Part shown: piece by piece, positions 18,534 to 24,591 of the stretch
Layout of the letters: every line of letters starts with the position of its first letter
Numbering within the stretch: position 1 is the stretch's first letter
UHGV virus genome: UHGV-0089682
Source: a virus
Direction: 5' to 3' (one strand)
Length of the DNA stretch: 35,102 nt
Position numbers and translations under genes: made by a program
Notes under the pieces: model-generated
Seen by the model: only the letters and a program-made list of their open reading frames with translations
Databases searched by the model: none
What the model was told of the DNA's origin: nothing

Positions 18534-20115
18534 CCAGCATCCCCTTCATTTCCGCAGCAAACATGGCATCACTGAGCAGCGTCATCAGGCGGGAATCATC
18601 CATTTCACGGTAAAGGGCAGGCAGGTCTGCCAGCGCATCAGCCAGCCCCCGCGTTCTGATGGCATCAATGACCGGCTCCAGTACCGGGTCGATGGCCTCC
18701 TGTAAGCGGCGGGCAGGCACAGCGTCCCCCATATCATCCAGTTCATCACGCGGCGTGCTTTTCGCTTCCGGCAGTCTGGCTGACAGCGCCGTCTGTTCTG
18801 TCTTTTCCTGTTTTTCCGTCGGCGTTTCCCTGTCAGGCATGGCCGGTTCATTACTGCTCTGACGGACACGGAATATGGCTTCACCGGGCGCAGGCTGCGG
18901 AATACCGGTCTGCTCCCGTATCCAGGGATCAGAAATATCCATCCCCGTACTGAGCTGCATCACTGCACTGGTAATTTTGGTGATATCCCCCGGTTCTTTT
19001 GTCTGGAAACAGATACGCGGCAGACGGCGGATATCAATGGCATGCGTGGTGTTCAGGGCATACAGCGGATACACCAGATCGCGGTTCAGCGTGGCGGCCA
19101 GCTGGCGCAAATCAGAATCCCTGATTTCCCGGCGCACCTCGTTATGCACCTCACCCAGCGAGCGTGCGCCCTTGTCTCCGGCTTCCGTGGTCAGCGTGCC
19201 GCCGAGTATTGCTTTGGAGATGGAACGCTCCCCCCACGAAATCATGGTTTCAAACGGATCGGCCTGACCGTTCGCGGCTGCCTGAAACTCCAGCGACATC
19301 CCGGCCGGGATGATCCCACCTGTACGTCGCCCGATATCCATCACCGCCCGCATCAGGGCGCTTTTCTGCTCCGGTGTTGCCCCGGACGGGTATTTTCCGA
19401 CCTTCATCGGCAGGCCGTACACCTCCAGAAATTCCGCCAGATCGCGCACGGAATAGTTTTTGAAAATGAACGGCCAGATTAGCGTCCTGACAAGCCCCGT
19501 TGCGCCACCGTAACCGGTCCGTGAACGTGACTGATGCACTATCCAGCCAAAAGGCTGAAACGCCACCCCGGCATGGCTGCCGTCACGCAGCCGCAGTTCG
19601 CTCAAATCATCCGGGTTAAGGCAGAAATGCCCGCTGTCACGCCAGCGGATGGCGCGGATGATGTGCATTTTACCGAGCATCCCGTGCTCAATTTCCATGC
19701 AGGAATAGCCCTTCAGGATGGCATCCGTGGCGTCAAACAGCATGGCATCAAACCAGTCGGCGGAATGCAGGTATTCGTCGAGCATTTCCGCGTCCTTCTT
19801 CTCATTCGCGCTGGCGTTCGGCGGCGGCTCAATGCTCCATGGCACCCCCTGAATGGCAAGGCGTCGCTTGCCCAGCTCCGCAAAAAGGTGGGTGTCCTTT
19901 TCTTCAATATCAGCCGCCAGATCGGACTGGGCAATCAGATCGCCACGTTCAGCCCCGCGAAGGCACTGTGCCGCCCGGTTCGGGGTGATACCCGAGGCCG
20001 GATGTTCAATATAACGGCTGGCAATCTGCGGAATATCCAGCGCGGCACTCTGCATCTCCGGGTCAAAGGAGAAAGGTTTTCCGTCAAGATCAATTATGCG
20101 TCCCACTACCAGCAC
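18517..20115 (-). CDS. Portal protein (Mu H / gp29-like)
   Basis: 532 aa following the large terminase; acidic C-terminal tail. Confidence 0.8.
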   Translation of the reverse strand: MLVVGRIIDLDGKPFSFDPEMQSAALDIPQIASRYIEHPASGITPNRAAQCLRGAERGDLIAQSDLAADIEEKDTHLFAELGKRRLAIQGVPWSIEPPPNASANEKKDAEMLDEYLHSADWFDAMLFDATDAILKGYSCMEIEHGMLGKMHIIRAIRWRDSGHFCLNPDDLSELRLRDGSHAGVAFQPFGWIVHQSRSRTGYGGATGLVRTLIWPFIFKNYSVRDLAEFLEVYGLPMKVGKYPSGATPEQKSALMRAVMDIGRRTGGIIPAGMSLEFQAAANGQADPFETMISWGERSISKAILGGTLTTEAGDKGARSLGEVHNEVRREIRDSDLRQLAATLNRDLVYPLYALNTTHAIDIRRLPRICFQTKEPGDITKITSAVMQLSTGMDISDPWIREQTGIPQPAPGEAIFRVRQSSNEPAMPDRETPTEKQEKTEQTALSARLPEAKSTPRDELDDMGDAVPARRLQEAIDPVLEPVIDAIRTRGLADALADLPALYREMDDSRLMTLLSDAMFAAEMKGMLDDTGD

Positions 20116-21773
20116 CCCCGATCAAATTCATGATATGCCTCATCGTCATCACGATAACTGCCCTCCATTGCCCGCGACCGCTCCGGCAGCGCCTGACAGG
20201 CTGATTCATCCAGGATGAAGCCCTCCATGTATGACGCCCGGTTTGCCATACAGAGCGCCACGGCAAAATCACCATGGCGGCGGGCGTTCACGGAGGAAGC
20301 GTTCTGGTCCTTTGTGCGCCCCTTGTCGATTTGCGGGATACCGTTCACCACCTTCACATGGCGCAAATCATCAAGCGTGGTCTGATGGCGGGCGACGAGG
20401 ATATTCTGATCTTCAAACTCGGCCTTCAGTTTTGGCATCCACTCGCCGTACCACTTCGGCGATAACATCACGCAGTCAATGATGTCCGGGCCAAAGGCCA
20501 GCAGCGCGGCTTCGGCCAGATAGCCGCCGTTACCGGTGGCGTCGAACGCCGCGCCAACCAGTGCCGGAACGCGGGTCAGGATGTACATCATCACCTGTTC
20601 CTGCTGGGCATACGGCAGGTTACGCAGCTCCACGCGAAACACCTCACGTTTTGCCAGGGATTCGGTGATTTCCAGCAGCACAAAGCAGGACAGGTCACCT
20701 GTGCGGGCAAAGTCTTCCCCGAAGCTGAAGCGGGAACGGGGATTTAACCTCTCTAAAAGCGGTTTTAAATGTTCTTCACACCAGGTTAAAACTTCCGATT
20801 CACGCAGCCATGCGGCACGACTGATGAAGTCGTCCGGGGCTTCAAACGTCAGAATCGGGATGTCACGGATCATCGCCATTTCAATAAGCGCGTGGGGGAT
20901 ATAGGCACCGCCGGATTTTTTCGGGATACAGCCGTATTCCTCGTCGGCATCCTCACGGGTCGGGGCGTTTTTGTAGAGGTCATCACGCCACTTCTGCTCA
21001 CTTTCCGGTGACCATTCCTGACCGGTGACGTAACAGATACGACGGTACAGCCCGTCCGCAATGGCATCATCCAGGGTAATGCGGTGGACGCTGTAATCCT
21101 TGCGCCCCTCGCGGGCTTCCTGAATGTACTGATTAAACAGATTATCGACGCCGTTATGCGTGGAAATAATGCGCACGCGCGCGCCCCACATGGTAAGCGC
21201 CATTGCCGCCTTGAGAAGTTCATCCAGCGACTCGTGGAACGCGGCTTCATCAATCACCACATCCCCCTGAAGGCCGCGCAGGTTTGACGGACGGGAAGAC
21301 AGCGCCTGAATTTTGAATCCACTGTTCGGGAAGCGGATCATGTAGGTCAGAATTTCTTCTTTTTTATTCCGATCCCAGAAGGTCTGCTCATACACATCAG
21401 CATCTGCCAGCTGGTTAAAGGCACGGGAGAACAGTGCGCAGGCAGAAATATATTCCAGCGCCATCTCCTGCTTTGACCCCACATAAAACACATTACGGCC
21501 ACCACGACGCTTAGGCTTTGCGGCGGTAATGACGTTACGCCCGGCTTCCGCCCAGGTCAGCCCGGTGCGGCGGGATTTCTCCGCGATGCAGACCTGACTT
21601 TCATCTGCAAACCAGCGGGCCTGATAATCCAGAAACACCGGCATATCACCGGGCAAATCAAGACTGTCCGGCACATCCACTCCCAGCAGGGCTTTTTCAC
21701 CGGACAGATCAATTTTGCGGGGAGGCGTCATTTGCATCAGTGAAGGCGACGTTTCTCTGGCTTTGTTCATCAT
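20106..21773 (-). CDS. Terminase large subunit (Mu gp28-like)
   Basis: 555 aa, first large gene of the late packaging block; start overlaps stop of the upstream micro-ORF. Confidence 0.8.
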   Translation of the reverse strand: MMNKARETSPSLMQMTPPRKIDLSGEKALLGVDVPDSLDLPGDMPVFLDYQARWFADESQVCIAEKSRRTGLTWAEAGRNVITAAKPKRRGGRNVFYVGSKQEMALEYISACALFSRAFNQLADADVYEQTFWDRNKKEEILTYMIRFPNSGFKIQALSSRPSNLRGLQGDVVIDEAAFHESLDELLKAAMALTMWGARVRIISTHNGVDNLFNQYIQEAREGRKDYSVHRITLDDAIADGLYRRICYVTGQEWSPESEQKWRDDLYKNAPTREDADEEYGCIPKKSGGAYIPHALIEMAMIRDIPILTFEAPDDFISRAAWLRESEVLTWCEEHLKPLLERLNPRSRFSFGEDFARTGDLSCFVLLEITESLAKREVFRVELRNLPYAQQEQVMMYILTRVPALVGAAFDATGNGGYLAEAALLAFGPDIIDCVMLSPKWYGEWMPKLKAEFEDQNILVARHQTTLDDLRHVKVVNGIPQIDKGRTKDQNASSVNARRHGDFAVALCMANRASYMEGFILDESACQALPERSRAMEGSYRDDDEAYHEFDRGCW

Positions 21774-22018
21774 GCTTTACCTGTCAGAATGCTTTTGATT
21801 CGGGACTCAAGCTCTTCAGTCATCACGTCCACGCCGCTCAACTCATCAGTAGCAGCCTCTGCCAGCAGCGAATGCAGTTGTTCCAGGGATATTTCCCCGG
21901 CAATGCTGAGTTCAGTCAACTCACGACACGCTTTTATAGTTTCAGGAGGTAACTGTGTTGCAAGACTGAATGCCTTCTGATGGGCACTACTCATCAGTGA
22001 GCGGTTATCTGTTGCCAT
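21770..22018 (-). CDS. Small ORF whose C-terminus duplicates the C-terminus of the upstream terminase small-subunit-like protein
   Basis: 82 aa; ...AATDELSGVDVMTEELESRIKSILTGKA aligns with ...AVTDELRGVDGMSEQIEFRIRQMLLGKA of ORF 22029-22610; stop overlaps TerL start. Confidence 0.4.
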   Translation of the reverse strand: MATDNRSLMSSAHQKAFSLATQLPPETIKACRELTELSIAGEISLEQLHSLLAEAATDELSGVDVMTEELESRIKSILTGKA

Positions 22019-22028
22019 GATTCACCTC

Positions 22029-22610
22029 CTACGCCTTACCCAGCAGCATCTGCCTGATACGGAATTCTATCTGCTCGCTCATGCCATCCACGCCGCGTAA
22101 CTCGTCGGTGACCGCGTTCGCCATCTCTTCAGCAAATGCGGCCCGGATTTCTTTTTCACGCTTAATGCTGCGCTCGGCGGCACTTTCTGCACGCTGTGCC
22201 GACAGGAGGATGTCCTTGATGAGGCGCATATCCACGTCGCTGTCGCTGTTCAGGGATTCGGTGGCGGCACGCAGACGGCGGTACATCAGGGCACGGGACA
22301 TCTCCAGAATCAGCGCCGTGGTTTCACCGGTCGGCTTATCCCCCAGTTCAGCCATCATGGCTTTTGTCTGCTCGCGCAAATCACGCAGGTTACGGGCAAT
22401 CAGCTCATTACGGGAGGCTTCCCGGCTGATGGCCGCCGGTGAGAGCTGCTGCTCTTCCGGCAGACCTGCTTCACGGATCAGACGGTTGATTTCCTCGCGG
22501 ATCTGGACCTGCGTAAGGCGTTTTTCACGCAGCATTTCCAGCAGCGGCTTACGGATGCTGTCGGGGAGCAAGTCCACCTTGCGTACACGGCCACGCGTTG
22601 GCTTATCCAT
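22029..22610 (-). CDS. Terminase small subunit-like protein (Mu gp27 / D equivalent)
   Basis: 193 aa, charged/helical, immediately upstream of TerL region. Confidence 0.6.
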   Translation of the reverse strand: MDKPTRGRVRKVDLLPDSIRKPLLEMLREKRLTQVQIREEINRLIREAGLPEEQQLSPAAISREASRNELIARNLRDLREQTKAMMAELGDKPTGETTALILEMSRALMYRRLRAATESLNSDSDVDMRLIKDILLSAQRAESAAERSIKREKEIRAAFAEEMANAVTDELRGVDGMSEQIEFRIRQMLLGKA

Positions 22611-22612
22611 CG

Positions 22613-22903
22613 TTACCCCCTTGCGCGTGGTTTCTTCACACCCGGAACGGTGGCGCGGCCTTCCGCCACATCCTGACCCCGGCCAGTCAGTTCAGCGATG
22701 AAATAACCATTAACGAGCGTGCGCTTACGCACCAGCCCCTGCTCGGCAAGCCAGGCAATATGGGTATGAACGGTGTCGCGGGACACGCGGTGACCGTAAT
22801 CATCCAGACAGTCCTGAAGCACAGACTCACCCAGTTCGCCGTTGTAATCCGCCAGCGACCGCAGAATGACAAGACGCTGATCTTCAGTAATGAAATCACT
22901 CAT
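22613..22903 (-). CDS. Small winged-helix-like DNA-binding protein (Mu gp26 position)
   Basis: 96 aa; RVSRDTVHTHIAWLAEQGLV resembles a recognition helix/wing; basic C-terminus. Confidence 0.4.
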   Translation of the reverse strand: MSDFITEDQRLVILRSLADYNGELGESVLQDCLDDYGHRVSRDTVHTHIAWLAEQGLVRKRTLVNGYFIAELTGRGQDVAEGRATVPGVKKPRARG

Positions 22904-23207
22904 TGTGTTTTTTCCTTACAGCCTGCTCCAGCAGCAGTTCGTTCTGATGGGAGACGGATTTCAGGGTGGCATTGGTGGCCTTAAGCTCACCGCGCAGGGT
23001 GGTGATTTCGATATTGAGTCTGTTCACCTCCTGCTGCGTGGGCAGGCCGGAAATACGGCTCTCCACCCGCTCAACCCGGTCGGAGAGTTTTTCAAAGGCC
23101 TCGCGGGGGACAAAGGTTTTGCGCATCAGCGCCATAAAAATCCCCCCGGCCGTGGCCGTTGCCGACAGGATCGGCACGACATAATCTTTAACGATGCTGA
23201 CCCACAT
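22896..23207 (-). CDS. Small membrane protein with N-terminal TM helix and coiled-coil (Mu gp25 position; lysis-associated candidate)
   Basis: 103 aa; hydrophobic VVPILSATATAGGIFMALM followed by heptad-like charged region. Confidence 0.45.
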   Translation of the reverse strand: MWVSIVKDYVVPILSATATAGGIFMALMRKTFVPREAFEKLSDRVERVESRISGLPTQQEVNRLNIEITTLRGELKATNATLKSVSHQNELLLEQAVRKKHNE

Positions 23208-23415
23208 GACCGGCCTCCATGATGTTCTGGCAGTTCACACAACGGATGGCATCCGGCACGGCAACCAGACGGGCAGCCGGAATGTCACCCCCGCAGTCCG
23301 CGCATACACGCCTGCCCGGTGTTTCCACCACCCGGCGCTTACGTGTCAGCCGGTCACAAAGGGCGCGTTCTGTTGCCCGCTCCACGACTGCCTGAGCACA
23401 ATCTGAATCATCCAT
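23188..23415 (-). CDS. TraR/DksA-family C4 zinc-finger protein
   Basis: ATG at 23413-23415 with AAGGA SD; 75 aa; CADCGGDIPAARL...AIRCVNCQ gives the CxxC-17-CxxC spacing typical of TraR/DksA zinc fingers. Confidence 0.7.
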   Translation of the reverse strand: MDDSDCAQAVVERATERALCDRLTRKRRVVETPGRRVCADCGGDIPAARLVAVPDAIRCVNCQNIMEAGHVGQHR

Positions 23416-24090: not shown

Positions 24091-24591
24091 TCAGACTTTC
24101 GGCAAATCGTAACGACATAACCATTCATCCGCCGAACGGCGGGCCTCAAGACCGGGGAGTTTTACCCCCTTTGAATAAATCCAGCGGATATACTGCTTAC
24201 AGGACGCGGGCATCTGCCCGGCATTGATAAGGCGCAGGAGCGTGGAGTTGCGAAAGTTCGTTTCACCGGCCCAGAACACCCAGGAAGCCAGCGCCACCGT
24301 CTGACCACGGGTAAGCGGCACCTGAACATAACGATCAATGGCCGCAAAGGCCCATTTCATGTCCTTTTCCAGCAGCTCCAGACATTCTTCATCAGTTTTT
24401 GTCATCCCCGGTTTCACATCCGGGCCGGTATGGCCGTAGCAGATGGTGGGGGTGCCGGTGGGATCAATGTACGTGGTGTTTCCTTTCCCTTCCCAGTAGC
24501 CGGTGTAGTGCGTGGCAATGGTGAACGTCCCGGCTCCGGCCAGGACAAGGGCAATCAGCTTTTTACGCAGTGGCGCGGGGAGTTTTGGCAT
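24091..24591 (-). CDS. Endolysin, T4-lysozyme-like (GH24) with N-terminal signal-anchor-release-type segment
   Basis: 166 aa; catalytic triad spacing E-x8-D-x5-T in WEGKGNTTYIDPTGTPT; N-terminal KKLIALVLAGAGTFTIATH is weakly hydrophobic and Gly/Ala-rich, as in SAR endolysins. Confidence 0.85.
   Translation of the reverse strand: MPKLPAPLRKKLIALVLAGAGTFTIATHYTGYWEGKGNTTYIDPTGTPTICYGHTGPDVKPGMTKTDEECLELLEKDMKWAFAAIDRYVQVPLTRGQTVALASWVFWAGETNFRNSTLLRLINAGQMPASCKQYIRWIYSKGVKLPGLEARRSADEWLCRYDLPKV

What the first reader, a model, noticed from the sequence alone, without database searches (positions are those of the whole stretch)
21770..22018. Micro-ORF duplicating the terminase small-subunit C-terminus, coupled to TerL
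The last ~35 residues of the 82-aa ORF align with the last ~35 of the upstream 193-aa TerS-like protein (A.TDEL.GVD.M.E..E.RI...L.GKA), and its stop overlaps the TerL ATG. This looks like a partial tandem duplication; the shared C-terminal peptide is a plausible TerL-interaction motif, so the small protein could modulate packaging.
Basis: seen in the sequence. Interest (0 to 1): 0.45.

Follow-up and report, generated by a model that had tools for sequence, protein, structure and literature searches.

The report
Chimeric small gene carrying terminase tail
A Mu-like prophage of E. coli carries an 82-residue gene, between its small and large terminase genes, made by fusing a small accessory gene of unknown function to a second, diverged copy of the small terminase's C-terminal tail; it is a tidy case of phage mosaic gene fusion, and a possible but untested packaging modulator.

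Summary
ORF82 (21770-22018, minus strand) ends with 31 residues that are 58% identical to the end of the upstream Mu gp27-type small terminase (BLASTP E 2e-10). Its stop overlaps the TerL start (ATGA).

This is not a simple in-place tandem duplication.
- **N-terminal part.** Residues 1-55 belong to a family of 51-69-residue ORFs ("X") that sit alone between gp27 and TerL in other enterobacterial Mu-like prophages. None of those carries the tail.
- **C-terminal part.** Residues 56-82, plus the junction with TerL, are closest to the gp27 tail of the Sp18-type prophage (O157 Sakai), which lacks the ORF. They are less like the window's own gp27 tail.
- **Origin.** ORF82 is therefore an in-frame fusion made by recombination between two phage lineages.

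ORF82 looks like a real gene. It has a strong Shine-Dalgarno site, all 32 alleles are open, and omega is about 0.38 (tail 0.27). It is dispensable and rare: 25 of 5426 E. coli genomes carry it, against 230 that carry the flanking module.

Binding of the tail to TerL is inferred only by analogy with lambda and P22. A rival view is that the tail is a recombination passenger kept because it carries TerL's translation start region. Interest is moderate.

The parts
22029..22610 (-). gp27-type small terminase (193 aa), Mu gp27 / DUF3486 family
   Evidence: PF11985 E 3e-33 over residues 12-193. PHROG 426 'terminase small subunit' E 9e-55. Across alleles omega is about 0.01, with 1 nonsynonymous against 59 synonymous changes.
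22032..22124 (-). Tail copy 1: gp27 codons 163-193 (MANAVTDELRGVDGMSEQIEFRIRQMLLGKA)
   Evidence: BLASTP partner of the ORF82 tail. Across alleles there are 0 nonsynonymous and 17 synonymous changes. The last ~20 codons are shared with the L010-type phage, not with Sp18. The AF2 secondary structure is helix, then loop 172-178, then helix 179-189 (low confidence).
22019..22031 (-). gp27 stop (TAG) and the ribosome-binding site of ORF82: TAGGAGGTGAATC followed by ATG
   Evidence: Read directly. It is identical in all ORF82 alleles and in the L010 and L035 types. It resembles the Mu gp27-TerL junction GAGAGGGTTATG.
21770..22018 (-). ORF82, the chimeric 82-aa gene (the finding)
   Evidence: Annotated as a hypothetical protein (WP_000179787.1) in RefSeq relatives. 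phrog_30922 E 1e-52. All 32 alleles / 13 haplotypes are open. Omega 0.38, p 5e-5 against neutrality.
21854..22018 (-). X module: ORF82 codons 1-55, homologous to the stand-alone small ORFs found between gp27 and TerL in other Mu-like prophages
   Evidence: 56% identity to the 67-aa P0012 in the same slot of L010. HMM matches to the 67- and 69-aa members. 41 protein clusters from E. coli, Salmonella and Citrobacter. AF2 predicts three helices (3-22, 25-39, 45-60) with block-mean pLDDT 79-88 over residues 11-50. Omega 0.43.
21773..21853 (-). Tail copy 2: ORF82 codons 56-82 (ATDELSGVDVMTEELESRIKSILTGKA). The BLAST-detectable similarity starts at codon 52 (21865).
   Evidence: Closest to the Sp18-type gp27 tail (22/31 aa; last 75 nt at 87/87/87/73/73% in 15-nt blocks). 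Omega 0.27, p 0.008. AF2 gives a low-confidence loop at 59-64 and a helix at 69-79.
21768..21773 (-). Overlap of the ORF82 stop with the TerL start: ATGATG, with TGA at 21772-21770
   Evidence: The junction GGTAAAGC(A/C)TGATGAA is homologous to the gp27-TerL junction of Sp18. Two other X-family members (L054, L016) also overlap the TerL start by ATGA.
20106..21773 (-). Large terminase (Mu gp28-like)
   Evidence: PHROG 2 'terminase large subunit' E 2e-43. 82% identical to Mu gp28 over the core. Omega 0.07 for codons 17-554.
21723..21773 (-). Hypervariable first ~17 codons of TerL, the right-hand edge of the mosaic segment
   Evidence: Window against Sp18 is 63-67% identical here and 93-100% beyond the RKID motif. 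Omega about 0.9. L010 has a different N-terminus.

Best explanation
**What it is.** ORF82 is a real, translated, lineage-restricted accessory gene of an Sp18-like, Mu-type transposable prophage. It is a chimera.

**How it arose.** A recombination event between two Mu-like phages joined two pieces in frame.
- The first ~55 codons come from a small 'X-family' gene. In other phages that gene stands alone between the small and large terminase genes.
- The last ~27 codons come from a second, Sp18-like allele of the small terminase gene gp27. That allele's overlapping junction with TerL came along with them.
- The joint falls in a short Ala-x-Ala motif that both parents share.

**Consequences in cis.** The phage now has two diverged copies of the gp27 tail. 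The copy on ORF82 supplies TerL's native upstream sequence, so TerL is still translated by termination-reinitiation or a weak AGGT site, now coupled to ORF82 rather than to gp27.

**Consequences at the protein level (inferred).** The tail of ORF82, a flexible loop followed by a short amphipathic helix, still docks on whatever the gp27 tail docks on. By analogy with lambda Nu1 and P22 gp3, that partner is TerL. ORF82 would then either deliver the three-helix X module to the terminase or compete mildly with the oligomeric gp27.

**Shown:** the anatomy, the chimeric origin, the distribution, the coding constraint and the coupling geometry.
**Inferred:** binding to TerL and any effect on packaging.
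For: **Anatomy**
- ORFs, sequence and tail similarity.

**The X family occupies the same slot without a tail**
- L010 carries a 67-aa ORF there.
- Other loci carry 58-87-aa members.
- The family comprises 41 clusters of 51-69 aa; only the E. coli 79-82-aa subfamily scores against gp27 tails (81-104 against 15-29 background).

**The tail is closest to the Sp18 type**
- 22/31 aa against 18/31 for the window's own tail.
- 76% nt against 63%.
- Block identities and breakpoints, including gp27 codon ~170 and TerL codon ~17.
- The junction sequence is homologous to Sp18's gp27-TerL junction.
- In E. coli the tail-plus-TerL-start segment is bimodal: 25 records at >=90% and 206 at about 75%.

**Real gene**
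- AGGAGGTGA lies 5 nt upstream of the ATG.
- 32 alleles are open, and the only indels are in frame.
- Omega 0.38, p 5e-5, while the neighbouring gp27 has omega 0.01.

**Protein-level constraint on the tail**
- Omega 0.27, p 0.008.
- By inspection of the alignment, 16 of the 20 invariant or nearly invariant gp27-family tail positions in A8 are kept in ORF82.
- gp27 and ORF82 show the same helix-loop-helix prediction.

**Analogy**
- The C-terminal region of lambda and P22 TerS binds the TerL N-terminal region (PMC9611059).
Against: - No direct evidence shows that the Mu gp27 tail binds TerL. No structure or literature was found.
- ORF82 differs from gp27 at four family-conserved tail positions: R172 to S, G176 to V, S178 to T, and V167 to A/V.
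- All other X-family members work without a tail, and close relatives lack X altogether (Sp18, Mu; L035 is a deletion scar). The protein is therefore not needed for packaging.
- The selection test on the tail rests on only 17 substitutions, and it ignores transition bias and recombination.
- The first 16 residues of TerL evolve nearly neutrally (omega about 0.9). If TerL is the partner, the docking site is not its extreme N-terminus.
- The direction of evolution is not settled. A fusion of X with an Sp18-like tail is the most parsimonious reading, but loss of the tail in other X lineages cannot be excluded.
Confidence: 0.45

Rival explanations
1. Passenger tail with a cis role only. The same chimeric origin applies, but the tail peptide has no function of its own. 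The recombinant survived because keeping the last codons of a gp27 gene in front of TerL preserves TerL's translation initiation region and its coupling to an upstream translated ORF. The ORF must stay open up to the TerL start. The X module does whatever X does elsewhere.
For: - TerL has no strong Shine-Dalgarno site of its own. Upstream there is only AGGT / GGTAAAGC, inside the tail's G-K-A codons, and a 4-nt or 1-nt stop/start overlap.
- The same overlap geometry appears with gp27 in Sp18 and with tail-less X members in L016 and L054.
- ORF82 is changed at four positions conserved in the gp27 family.
- X members normally lack the tail.
- No promoter or terminator flanks the ORF.
Against: - Omega of the tail (0.27) is no higher than that of the X module (0.43), and it is below neutrality at p 0.008.
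- 16 of 20 family-conserved tail positions are kept even though synonymous divergence from the nearest known tail is about 0.7.
- Only in-frame indels are seen at the joint.
Confidence: 0.33
2. One reading: a partial tandem duplication of the 3' end of the resident gp27 gene happened in place, and the upstream part of the micro-ORF is new or scrambled sequence.
For: - Two direct copies of the tail lie 259 nt apart in one operon.
- An Ala-x-Ala microhomology sits at the joint (seen in the sequences).
Against: - The upstream 55 codons are homologous to an independent gene family that occurs without the tail in L010, L061, L081, L063, L052 and in 30 further clusters.
- The two resident copies are the least similar pair among the E. 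coli tail copies compared (63% nt, pS 0.80). The ORF82 copy is nearer to the Sp18 gp27 tail.
- The window's own gp27 tail is itself of foreign (L010) type from codon ~171 onward.
Confidence: 0.07
3. A non-functional remnant: the ORF is a recombination scar that happens to be open, and it is either not translated into a stable protein or is evolving towards loss.
For: - It is rare: 25 of 5426 genomes carry it, against 230 with the flanking module.
- It is dispensable in relatives.
- It evolves fast compared with its neighbours.
- Two frameshifted variants occur in read-level assemblies (P0010, P0011).
- Many alleles start with GTG.
Against: - It has a perfect Shine-Dalgarno site.
- All 32 alleles from genomes, IMG/VR and metagenomes are open across about 12% synonymous divergence.
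- Omega 0.38, p 5e-5.
- The wider X family is conserved across E. coli, Salmonella and Citrobacter.
- AF2 predicts a compact helical module.
Confidence: 0.1

Closest known systems
Mu gp27 / Phage_Mu_Gp27 (PF11985, DUF3486) small terminase subunit
   Same: The last ~27-31 residues of ORF82 are homologous to the conserved C-terminal tail of this family (TDEL-G-D-M-E...RI...L-GKA). Both are predicted to form a loop followed by a short helix.
   Different: ORF82 lacks the N-terminal helix-turn-helix and the long helical core. It gets no PF11985 hit, and its first 55 residues are unrelated to gp27. It is not a small terminase.
Unnamed 'X' family of 51-69-aa hypothetical proteins between gp27 and TerL in enterobacterial Mu-like prophages (phrog_30922 and relatives; for example P0012, P0137, P0141, P0145)
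   Same: They share the genomic slot, the ribosome-binding-site context and a homologous N-terminal ~55 residues. Where examined, they show the same overlap with the TerL start.
   Different: Only the E. coli ORF82 subfamily carries a gp27 tail in place of the family's native short C-terminus. No function is known for any member.
Prophage Sp18 of E. coli O157:H7 Sakai, and the Mu-like inserts in Stx phages LC727881 and LC727895
   Same: The flanking gp27 and TerL are about 90% identical in nucleotide sequence. Sp18's gp27 tail and its junction with TerL are the positional homologues of the ORF82 tail and junction.
   Different: They lack ORF82. In them gp27 abuts TerL directly with a TGATG overlap.
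C-terminal TerL-binding segments of lambda gpNu1 and P22 gp3 small terminases
   Same: Each is a flexible C-terminal moiety following the oligomerisation core that binds the N-terminal region of TerL (PMC9611059). This is the functional analogy behind the docking hypothesis.
   Different: There is no sequence relationship. In those phages the segment is not known to be copied onto a second protein. Binding has not been shown for Mu gp27.
Small proteins that bind terminase subunits: PLE Gpi (binds ICP1 TerL) and PICI Rpp (binds phage TerS)
   Same: These are small proteins that change packaging by binding a terminase subunit (PMC11417361, PMC6739421). ORF82 would work like them if the docking hypothesis is right.
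   Different: They are encoded by satellites that parasitise a helper phage, not by the phage's own packaging operon. Pfam, PADLOC and NCBIfam gave ORF82 no significant hit that would link it to such proteins. No mimicry of a TerS tail has been described for them.

Membership tests
Mu gp27 / PF11985 small terminase | Full-length match to the family profile (N-terminal HTH plus helical core) | tested here: not met
   hmmscan of ORF82 against Pfam gives no PF11985 hit at E <= 0.1, while gp27 scores 3e-33. hhalign of the X module against a gp27 alignment gives probability 0.4%.
Mu gp27 / PF11985 small terminase | Conserved C-terminal tail motif | tested here: met
   BLASTP gives 18/31 identities, E 2e-10. 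The match to the Sp18-type tail is 22/31. By inspection, 16 of the 20 invariant or nearly invariant tail positions of A8 are kept.
X family (phrog_30922 and relatives) | Profile match over the N-terminal ~55 residues | tested here: met
   phrog_30922 E 1e-52 for ORF82, 2.6e-14 for the 67-aa member and 4e-4 for the 69-aa member. A profile search recovers 41 clusters.
X family (phrog_30922 and relatives) | Position directly after the gp27 stop, with its own Shine-Dalgarno site, and directly upstream of TerL | tested here: met
   Window; L010; L016, L052, L054, L061, L063 and L081.
X family (phrog_30922 and relatives) | Short native C-terminus (total length 51-69 aa) with no gp27-like tail | tested here: not met
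   ORF82-type proteins are 79-82 aa and score 81-104 against gp27 tails. All other members score 15-29. ORF82 is a tail-bearing variant of the family.
In-place tandem duplication | The two resident copies are each other's closest relatives | tested here: not met
   ORF82 tail against the window's own gp27 tail: 63% nt, pS 0.80. Against the Sp18 gp27 tail: 76% nt, or 81% over the last 75 nt.
Moron (independently transcribed phage accessory gene) | Own promoter and/or terminator | tested here: not met
   The consensus scan finds no sigma-70-like promoter and no flanking terminator in 21500-23300. The gene is embedded in the operon and overlaps TerL.
Moron (independently transcribed phage accessory gene) | Presence/absence polymorphism among close relatives | tested here: met
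   25 genomes carry it against 205 without it among 230 that hold the module. L035 carries a deletion scar.
Terminase-binding packaging modulators (Gpi, Rpp and the like) | Sequence or fold relationship to a described modulator | tested here: inconclusive
   ORF82 gets no significant hit in Pfam or NCBIfam and no hit in PADLOC; the X-module profile finds no meaningful PDB relative; BFVD fold matches have E > 0.9. These libraries may not contain Gpi or Rpp.
Terminase-binding packaging modulators (Gpi, Rpp and the like) | Physical binding to TerL or TerS and an effect on packaging | not testable with these tools
   This needs complex prediction or an experiment. Only monomer prediction was available.

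The most novel reading that the evidence does not exclude
ORF82 is a phage-encoded mimic of the small terminase's own docking peptide. It would be a monomeric three-helix protein that uses a copied, diverged TerS tail to occupy the TerS-binding site on TerL. In that way it could tune or gate terminase assembly and nuclease activity. It could also discriminate between the two tail types (the C type on its own gp27 and the A type of Sp18-like phages), and so interfere with packaging by co-resident Sp18-type Mu-like phages.
Probability: 0.2. Interest if true: 0.6.

Novelty: new variant of a known kind. Interest (0 to 1): 0.35.

Why it matters
**If the tail on ORF82 still docks to TerL.** This would be a natural experiment that isolates the TerL-binding peptide of a Mu-type small terminase on a tiny soluble carrier. 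Nothing structural or biochemical is known for that family. It would give a direct handle for mapping the TerS-TerL interface in transposable phages. It would also be a first example of a phage copying its own TerS tail onto an accessory protein.

**If the tail does not dock.** The locus still documents three things.
- The gp27-TerL boundary of Mu-like phages is a recombination and insertion hot spot that holds one or two families of small unknown genes.
- Breakpoints fall inside the TerS tail rather than at the gene boundary.
- TerL expression is kept coupled to whichever ORF lies upstream.

The practical impact is modest. It is mainly a correction to annotation, from 'hypothetical protein' to 'X-family / gp27-tail fusion', and a testable hypothesis.

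Tried and rejected
1. **ORF82's N-terminal part as a copy of the TerL N-terminus** (a tandem duplication spanning the gp27/TerL junction). A weak ungapped alignment of ORF82 residues 8-46 to TerL residues 1-39 was found (score 35, p 0.03 against whole TerL). I dropped it once true homologues of the N-terminal part were found as stand-alone genes.
2. **The N-terminal part as a degenerate gp27 helix-turn-helix.** By eye, LPPETIK... resembles LLPDSIRK.... It is not supported: local score p 0.64 and hhalign probability 0.4%.
3. **Nucleotide homology to gp27 extending upstream of codon 52 in another frame.** It is not needed. Codons 41-55 align with the X family, allowing a 4-codon indel.
4. **Library and fold searches.** Pfam, NCBIfam, PADLOC and Rfam gave nothing significant for ORF82, and a PDB sequence search with the X-module profile (A6) likewise. 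The PDB hit 7rdr is a designed repeat protein with no valid stretch. The BFVD fold search of the ORF82 model gave only E > 0.9.
5. **Monomer model of gp27.** It is too poor (pLDDT 56) for a fold search, so I used only its secondary structure.
6. **Co-variation between tail type and TerL type in Pasteurellaceae Mu-like phages.** The tails are all variations on one motif, and my script did not capture the divergent TerL cleanly. No conclusion was drawn.
7. **A gp27 allele with a tail nearly identical to ORF82's, as a direct donor.** None was found among the 120 best gp27 clusters or in complete E. coli genomes, where no record falls in the 80-90% identity band.
8. **A decayed gp27 tail in the 87-aa X member of L054.** There is a 12-residue match (p 0.002 uncorrected, 8 tests) and a gappy nucleotide alignment. 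This is suggestive only.
9. **Literature on the Mu gp27 tail or DUF3486.** Nothing relevant was found.
Full report
**Setting.** The window is a Mu-like transposable prophage read on the minus strand. It holds transposase genes near 30.5-33.7 kb, Mor, a lysozyme at 24091-24591, a TraR/DksA-like ORF, and DUF2730 (Mu gp25-like) at 22896-23207. A gp26-like winged-helix ORF lies at 22613-22903, gp27 at 22029-22610, the 82-aa ORF at 21770-22018, TerL at 20106-21773, and then portal and head genes. The 193-aa protein is a full-length member of Phage_Mu_Gp27 / PF11985 (E 3e-33) and of PHROG 426, 'terminase small subunit'. The 555-aa protein matches PHROG 2, 'terminase large subunit', and is 82% identical to Mu gp28 over its core.

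**Check of the observation.**
- ORF82 residues 52-82 align without gaps to gp27 residues 163-193: 18/31 identical, 24/31 similar, BLASTP E 2e-10. The score is 90, against 18.8 +/- 3.9 for shuffled sequence.
- The PHROG profile built on relatives of ORF82 independently hits the gp27 tail (E 6e-8).
- At the nucleotide level the last 93 nt are 63% identical, with a 55-nt ungapped core.
- The ORF82 stop (TGA, 21772-21770) overlaps the first TerL ATG (21773-21771) as ATGA.
- ORF82 has a near-perfect Shine-Dalgarno sequence. TAGGAGGTGAATC-ATG begins inside the gp27 stop codon.
- No promoter-like or terminator-like site flanks it, and no Rfam family matches the region.

**Distribution.** The 1.2-kb region around the ORF matches 230 of 5426 complete E. 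coli genomes. The part unique to ORF82 (21875-22030) occurs in only 25 of them, at 29 places. The other ~205 are of the Sp18 type, the Mu-like prophage of O157:H7 Sakai. In that type gp27 runs straight into TerL with a TGATG overlap and the region is 259 nt shorter. Phage Mu, D108 and SfMu also lack the ORF; in Mu, gp27 and gp28 are 7 nt apart. In a 5.8-billion-protein collection ORF82 has only E. coli relatives, in 11 clusters. RefSeq annotates it as a hypothetical protein, and PHROGs holds it as phrog_30922, function unknown.

**What the N-terminal part is.** An exhaustive HMMER search found a 67-aa protein, P0012, that is 56-59% identical to ORF82 over the first ~56-60 residues but has a different end. 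P0012 sits in exactly the same slot of another Mu-like prophage (L010). It follows an identical gp27 tail and an identical TAGGAGGTGAATC-ATG. After it come 120 nt of unrelated spacer and a TerL with a different N-terminus.

I then surveyed about 90 Mu-like loci from GTDB genomes and IMG/VR. The distance from the gp27 stop to the conserved RKID motif of TerL is about 40 nt in most of them. In the rest it is 85-92, 237, 303, 310, 393, 411-469 or 565-672 nt. The longer gaps start with small ORFs of 58-87 aa that are homologous to the first 55 residues of ORF82 (alignment A5; phrog_30922 E 2.6e-14 and 4e-4). A profile search recovers 41 clusters of this 'X' family in E. coli, Salmonella and Citrobacter. 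All are annotated hypothetical, and the tail-less members are 51-69 aa. Only the E. coli subfamily of 79-82 aa scores against gp27 tails: 81-104, against a background of 15-29.

The X module is unrelated to the body of gp27 (hhalign probability 0.4%). ORF82 has no significant Pfam, NCBIfam or PADLOC match, the X-module profile finds no PDB relative, and the ORF82 model has no BFVD fold match. AlphaFold2 predicts three helices (3-22, 25-39, 45-60; block-mean pLDDT 79-88 over residues 11-50), a low-confidence loop (59-64) and a C-terminal helix (69-79). The low-confidence gp27 model has the same ending: a long helix to residue 171, a loop at 172-178 and a helix at 179-189.

**What the C-terminal part is.** Among 120 gp27 clusters, the tail closest to ORF82's is the Sp18 type (22/31). 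The window's own gp27 tail matches at only 18/31.
- In nucleotides, the ORF82 tail is 76% identical to the Sp18 gp27 tail and 63% identical to the resident gp27 tail. Over the last 75 nt the 15-nt block identities to Sp18 are 87/87/87/73/73%, and to the resident tail 87/60/60/60/53%.
- The junction GGTAAAGC(A/C)TGATGAA is shared by ORF82-TerL and Sp18 gp27-TerL.
- Conversely, the window's gp27 is about 95% identical to Sp18's up to codon ~170. It then drops to 80, 67 and 47%, while staying 97-100% identical to L010.
- On the other side, identity to Sp18 recovers to 93-100% only after TerL codon ~17.
- In E. coli genomes the segment 'tail + TerL start' has just two deeply diverged forms: 25 records at >=90% and 206 at about 75%, with nothing in between.

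The simplest history is a single illegitimate crossover between two phages. One parent was X-bearing, of the L010 kind (gp27 with tail type C, the Shine-Dalgarno site, then X). The other was an Sp18-like phage (gp27 with tail type A, overlapping TerL). The crossover joined X codon ~55 to gp27 codon ~167. Both parents read Ala-x-Ala at that point: AHA in X, ANA in gp27 and AEA in ORF82 (sequences). The result is a heterologous 'duplication' of the tail, not an in-place tandem duplication. The direction is inferred, not proven. A hint of a decayed tail in the 87-aa X member of L054 (12 residues, p 0.002 uncorrected) leaves room for an older fusion followed by loss elsewhere.

**Is it a gene?** I collected 32 alleles (13 haplotypes) from complete genomes, IMG/VR and metagenomes. 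All are open, and the only length changes are in-frame 2-3-codon deletions at the X/tail joint. Two frameshifted variants exist in read-level assemblies. I counted substitutions along minimum spanning trees of haplotypes:

| Region | Nonsynonymous | Synonymous | Omega | p against neutrality |
|---|---|---|---|---|
| gp27 body | 1 | 59 | 0.01 | - |
| gp27 tail | 0 | 17 | 0 | - |
| TerL codons 17-554 | - | - | 0.07 | - |
| TerL codons 2-16 | - | - | 0.89 | - |
| ORF82 whole | 38.5 | 31.5 | 0.38 | 5e-5 |
| ORF82 X module | - | - | 0.43 | 0.0016 |
| ORF82 tail | 8 | 9 | 0.27 | 0.008 |

ORF82 therefore evolves far faster than its essential neighbours but under clear coding constraint, and the tail is constrained at least as much as the rest. 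ORF82 keeps 16 of the 20 tail positions that are invariant or nearly invariant in gp27 alignment A8 (against the alignment). It differs at R172S, G176V, S178T and V167A/V. The gene is dispensable: Sp18 and Mu lack it, and L035 is an L010-type phage in which X is reduced to the scar ATGGCAACAGA.

**How it most likely works.** Two facts are shown by the sequence.
- *Coupling to TerL.* TerL has no strong ribosome-binding site of its own. Its start is embedded in the last codons (G-K-A) of whichever ORF lies upstream: gp27 in Sp18, ORF82 here, and tail-less X members in L016 and L054. The tail DNA therefore carries TerL's native initiation context, and TerL translation is coupled to ORF82.
- *Constraint on the tail peptide.* It is conserved across the whole gp27 family, even at 35-40% overall identity, and it remains constrained on ORF82.

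By analogy with lambda gpNu1 and P22 gp3, whose flexible C-terminal segments bind the N-terminal region of TerL (PMC9611059), I infer that the gp27 tail is the TerL-docking element. I also infer that ORF82 can still use it, either to place the X module on terminase or to compete weakly with oligomeric gp27. This step is untested. No literature or structure for the Mu gp27 tail was found. The near-neutral evolution of the first 16 TerL residues means that any docking site lies elsewhere on TerL.

The main rival is that the tail is a passenger, retained only for its cis role and for keeping the ORF open. The selection data argue against this only mildly.

**Comparison with known systems.**
- ORF82 is not a small terminase. 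The defining profile match and the HTH/core were tested and not met.
- It is a member of the unnamed X family / phrog_30922, and a tail-bearing variant of it.
- It is not a classical moron, because it has no transcription signals of its own, although it shows moron-like presence/absence.
- Functionally it would resemble small terminase-binding proteins such as PLE Gpi, which binds TerL (PMC11417361), or PICI Rpp, which binds TerS (PMC6739421). It is encoded in the phage's own packaging operon, and Pfam, PADLOC and NCBIfam gave no hit that would link it to such proteins.

**Verdict.** The duplication reading is corrected to a chimeric gene made by recombination between phage lineages. The TerL-interaction idea is plausible but unproven. 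I rate novelty as a new variant of a known kind: phage mosaicism and gene fusion, and accessory small ORFs in the packaging module. Interest is moderate (0.35). If the tail-mimic reading were true (about 0.2), it would deserve about 0.6.

Noticed in passing
Loci L016-L110 (survey). Window equivalent: 21723-22031.: The gp27-TerL boundary of enterobacterial Mu-like phages is an insertion and recombination hot spot. The distance from the gp27 stop to the conserved RKID motif of TerL is about 40 nt in most loci. In others it is 85-92, 237, 303, 310, 393, 411-469 or 565-672 nt.
   Followed up: partly
L063 3754-3951; L067 3762-3965; L081 3749-3940; L083 3747-3944: The larger inserts (411-672 nt) carry a second conserved small ORF ('Y', 63-67 aa, MxNEKIxYKSSTELAL...LYLLMQMVDGP). 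It matches phrog_21398 (E 5e-26), function unknown. In L063 and L081 it lies downstream of a called X gene.
   Followed up: partly
L035 3582-3675: An L010-type phage in which the X gene has been deleted. Only its first 11 nt (ATGGCAACAGA) remain, fused to the sequence upstream of TerL. This shows that X is dispensable and turns over.
   Followed up: yes
window 21723-21773 (TerL codons 1-17): The first ~16 codons of TerL are mosaic and nearly neutral: omega about 0.9, and 63-67% nt identity to Sp18 against 93-100% further in. L010 has an unrelated, longer N-terminus.
   Followed up: partly
window 22032-22124 (gp27 tail): Among ORF82-bearing alleles the gp27 tail shows very high synonymous diversity with no amino-acid change: 17 synonymous and 0 nonsynonymous changes in 31 codons. 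This is a higher synonymous density than in the gp27 body, which suggests recombination under strict protein constraint.
   Followed up: no
L054 3590-3853: An 87-aa X-family member whose stop also overlaps the TerL start by ATGA. Its C-terminal AKARAERLRGAE resembles AKAVTEELHGVD in its own gp27 tail (p 0.002 uncorrected). It may be a decayed second instance of a tail fusion.
   Followed up: partly
window 22016-22018 and 21771-21773; loci L006-L008, L031, L033, L037-L039: There are start-codon polymorphisms. Many ORF82 alleles begin with GTG rather than ATG. In most alleles the first TerL ATG reads CTG, so TerL starts at the next ATG with a TGATG overlap.
   Followed up: yes
NZ_AP022815.1 (E. 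coli JE86-ST05), locus L007: This genome carries three copies of the ORF82-bearing prophage region, and JE86-ST02 carries two, consistent with recent transposition. In the copy examined, TerL and the lysozyme gene are annotated as frameshifted.
   Followed up: no
P0017 (291 aa, Logan assembly): A 291-aa protein contains a complete Sp18-type gp27 (97% identity, 100% coverage) plus about 100 extra residues. It may be a gp26-gp27 fusion or an assembly or frameshift artefact.
   Followed up: no
window 22081-22701 (+): A 206-aa open frame runs antisense across almost the whole of gp27. The same antisense frame is open in L001 and L010. It is probably a by-product of gp27's codon composition rather than a gene.
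   Followed up: no
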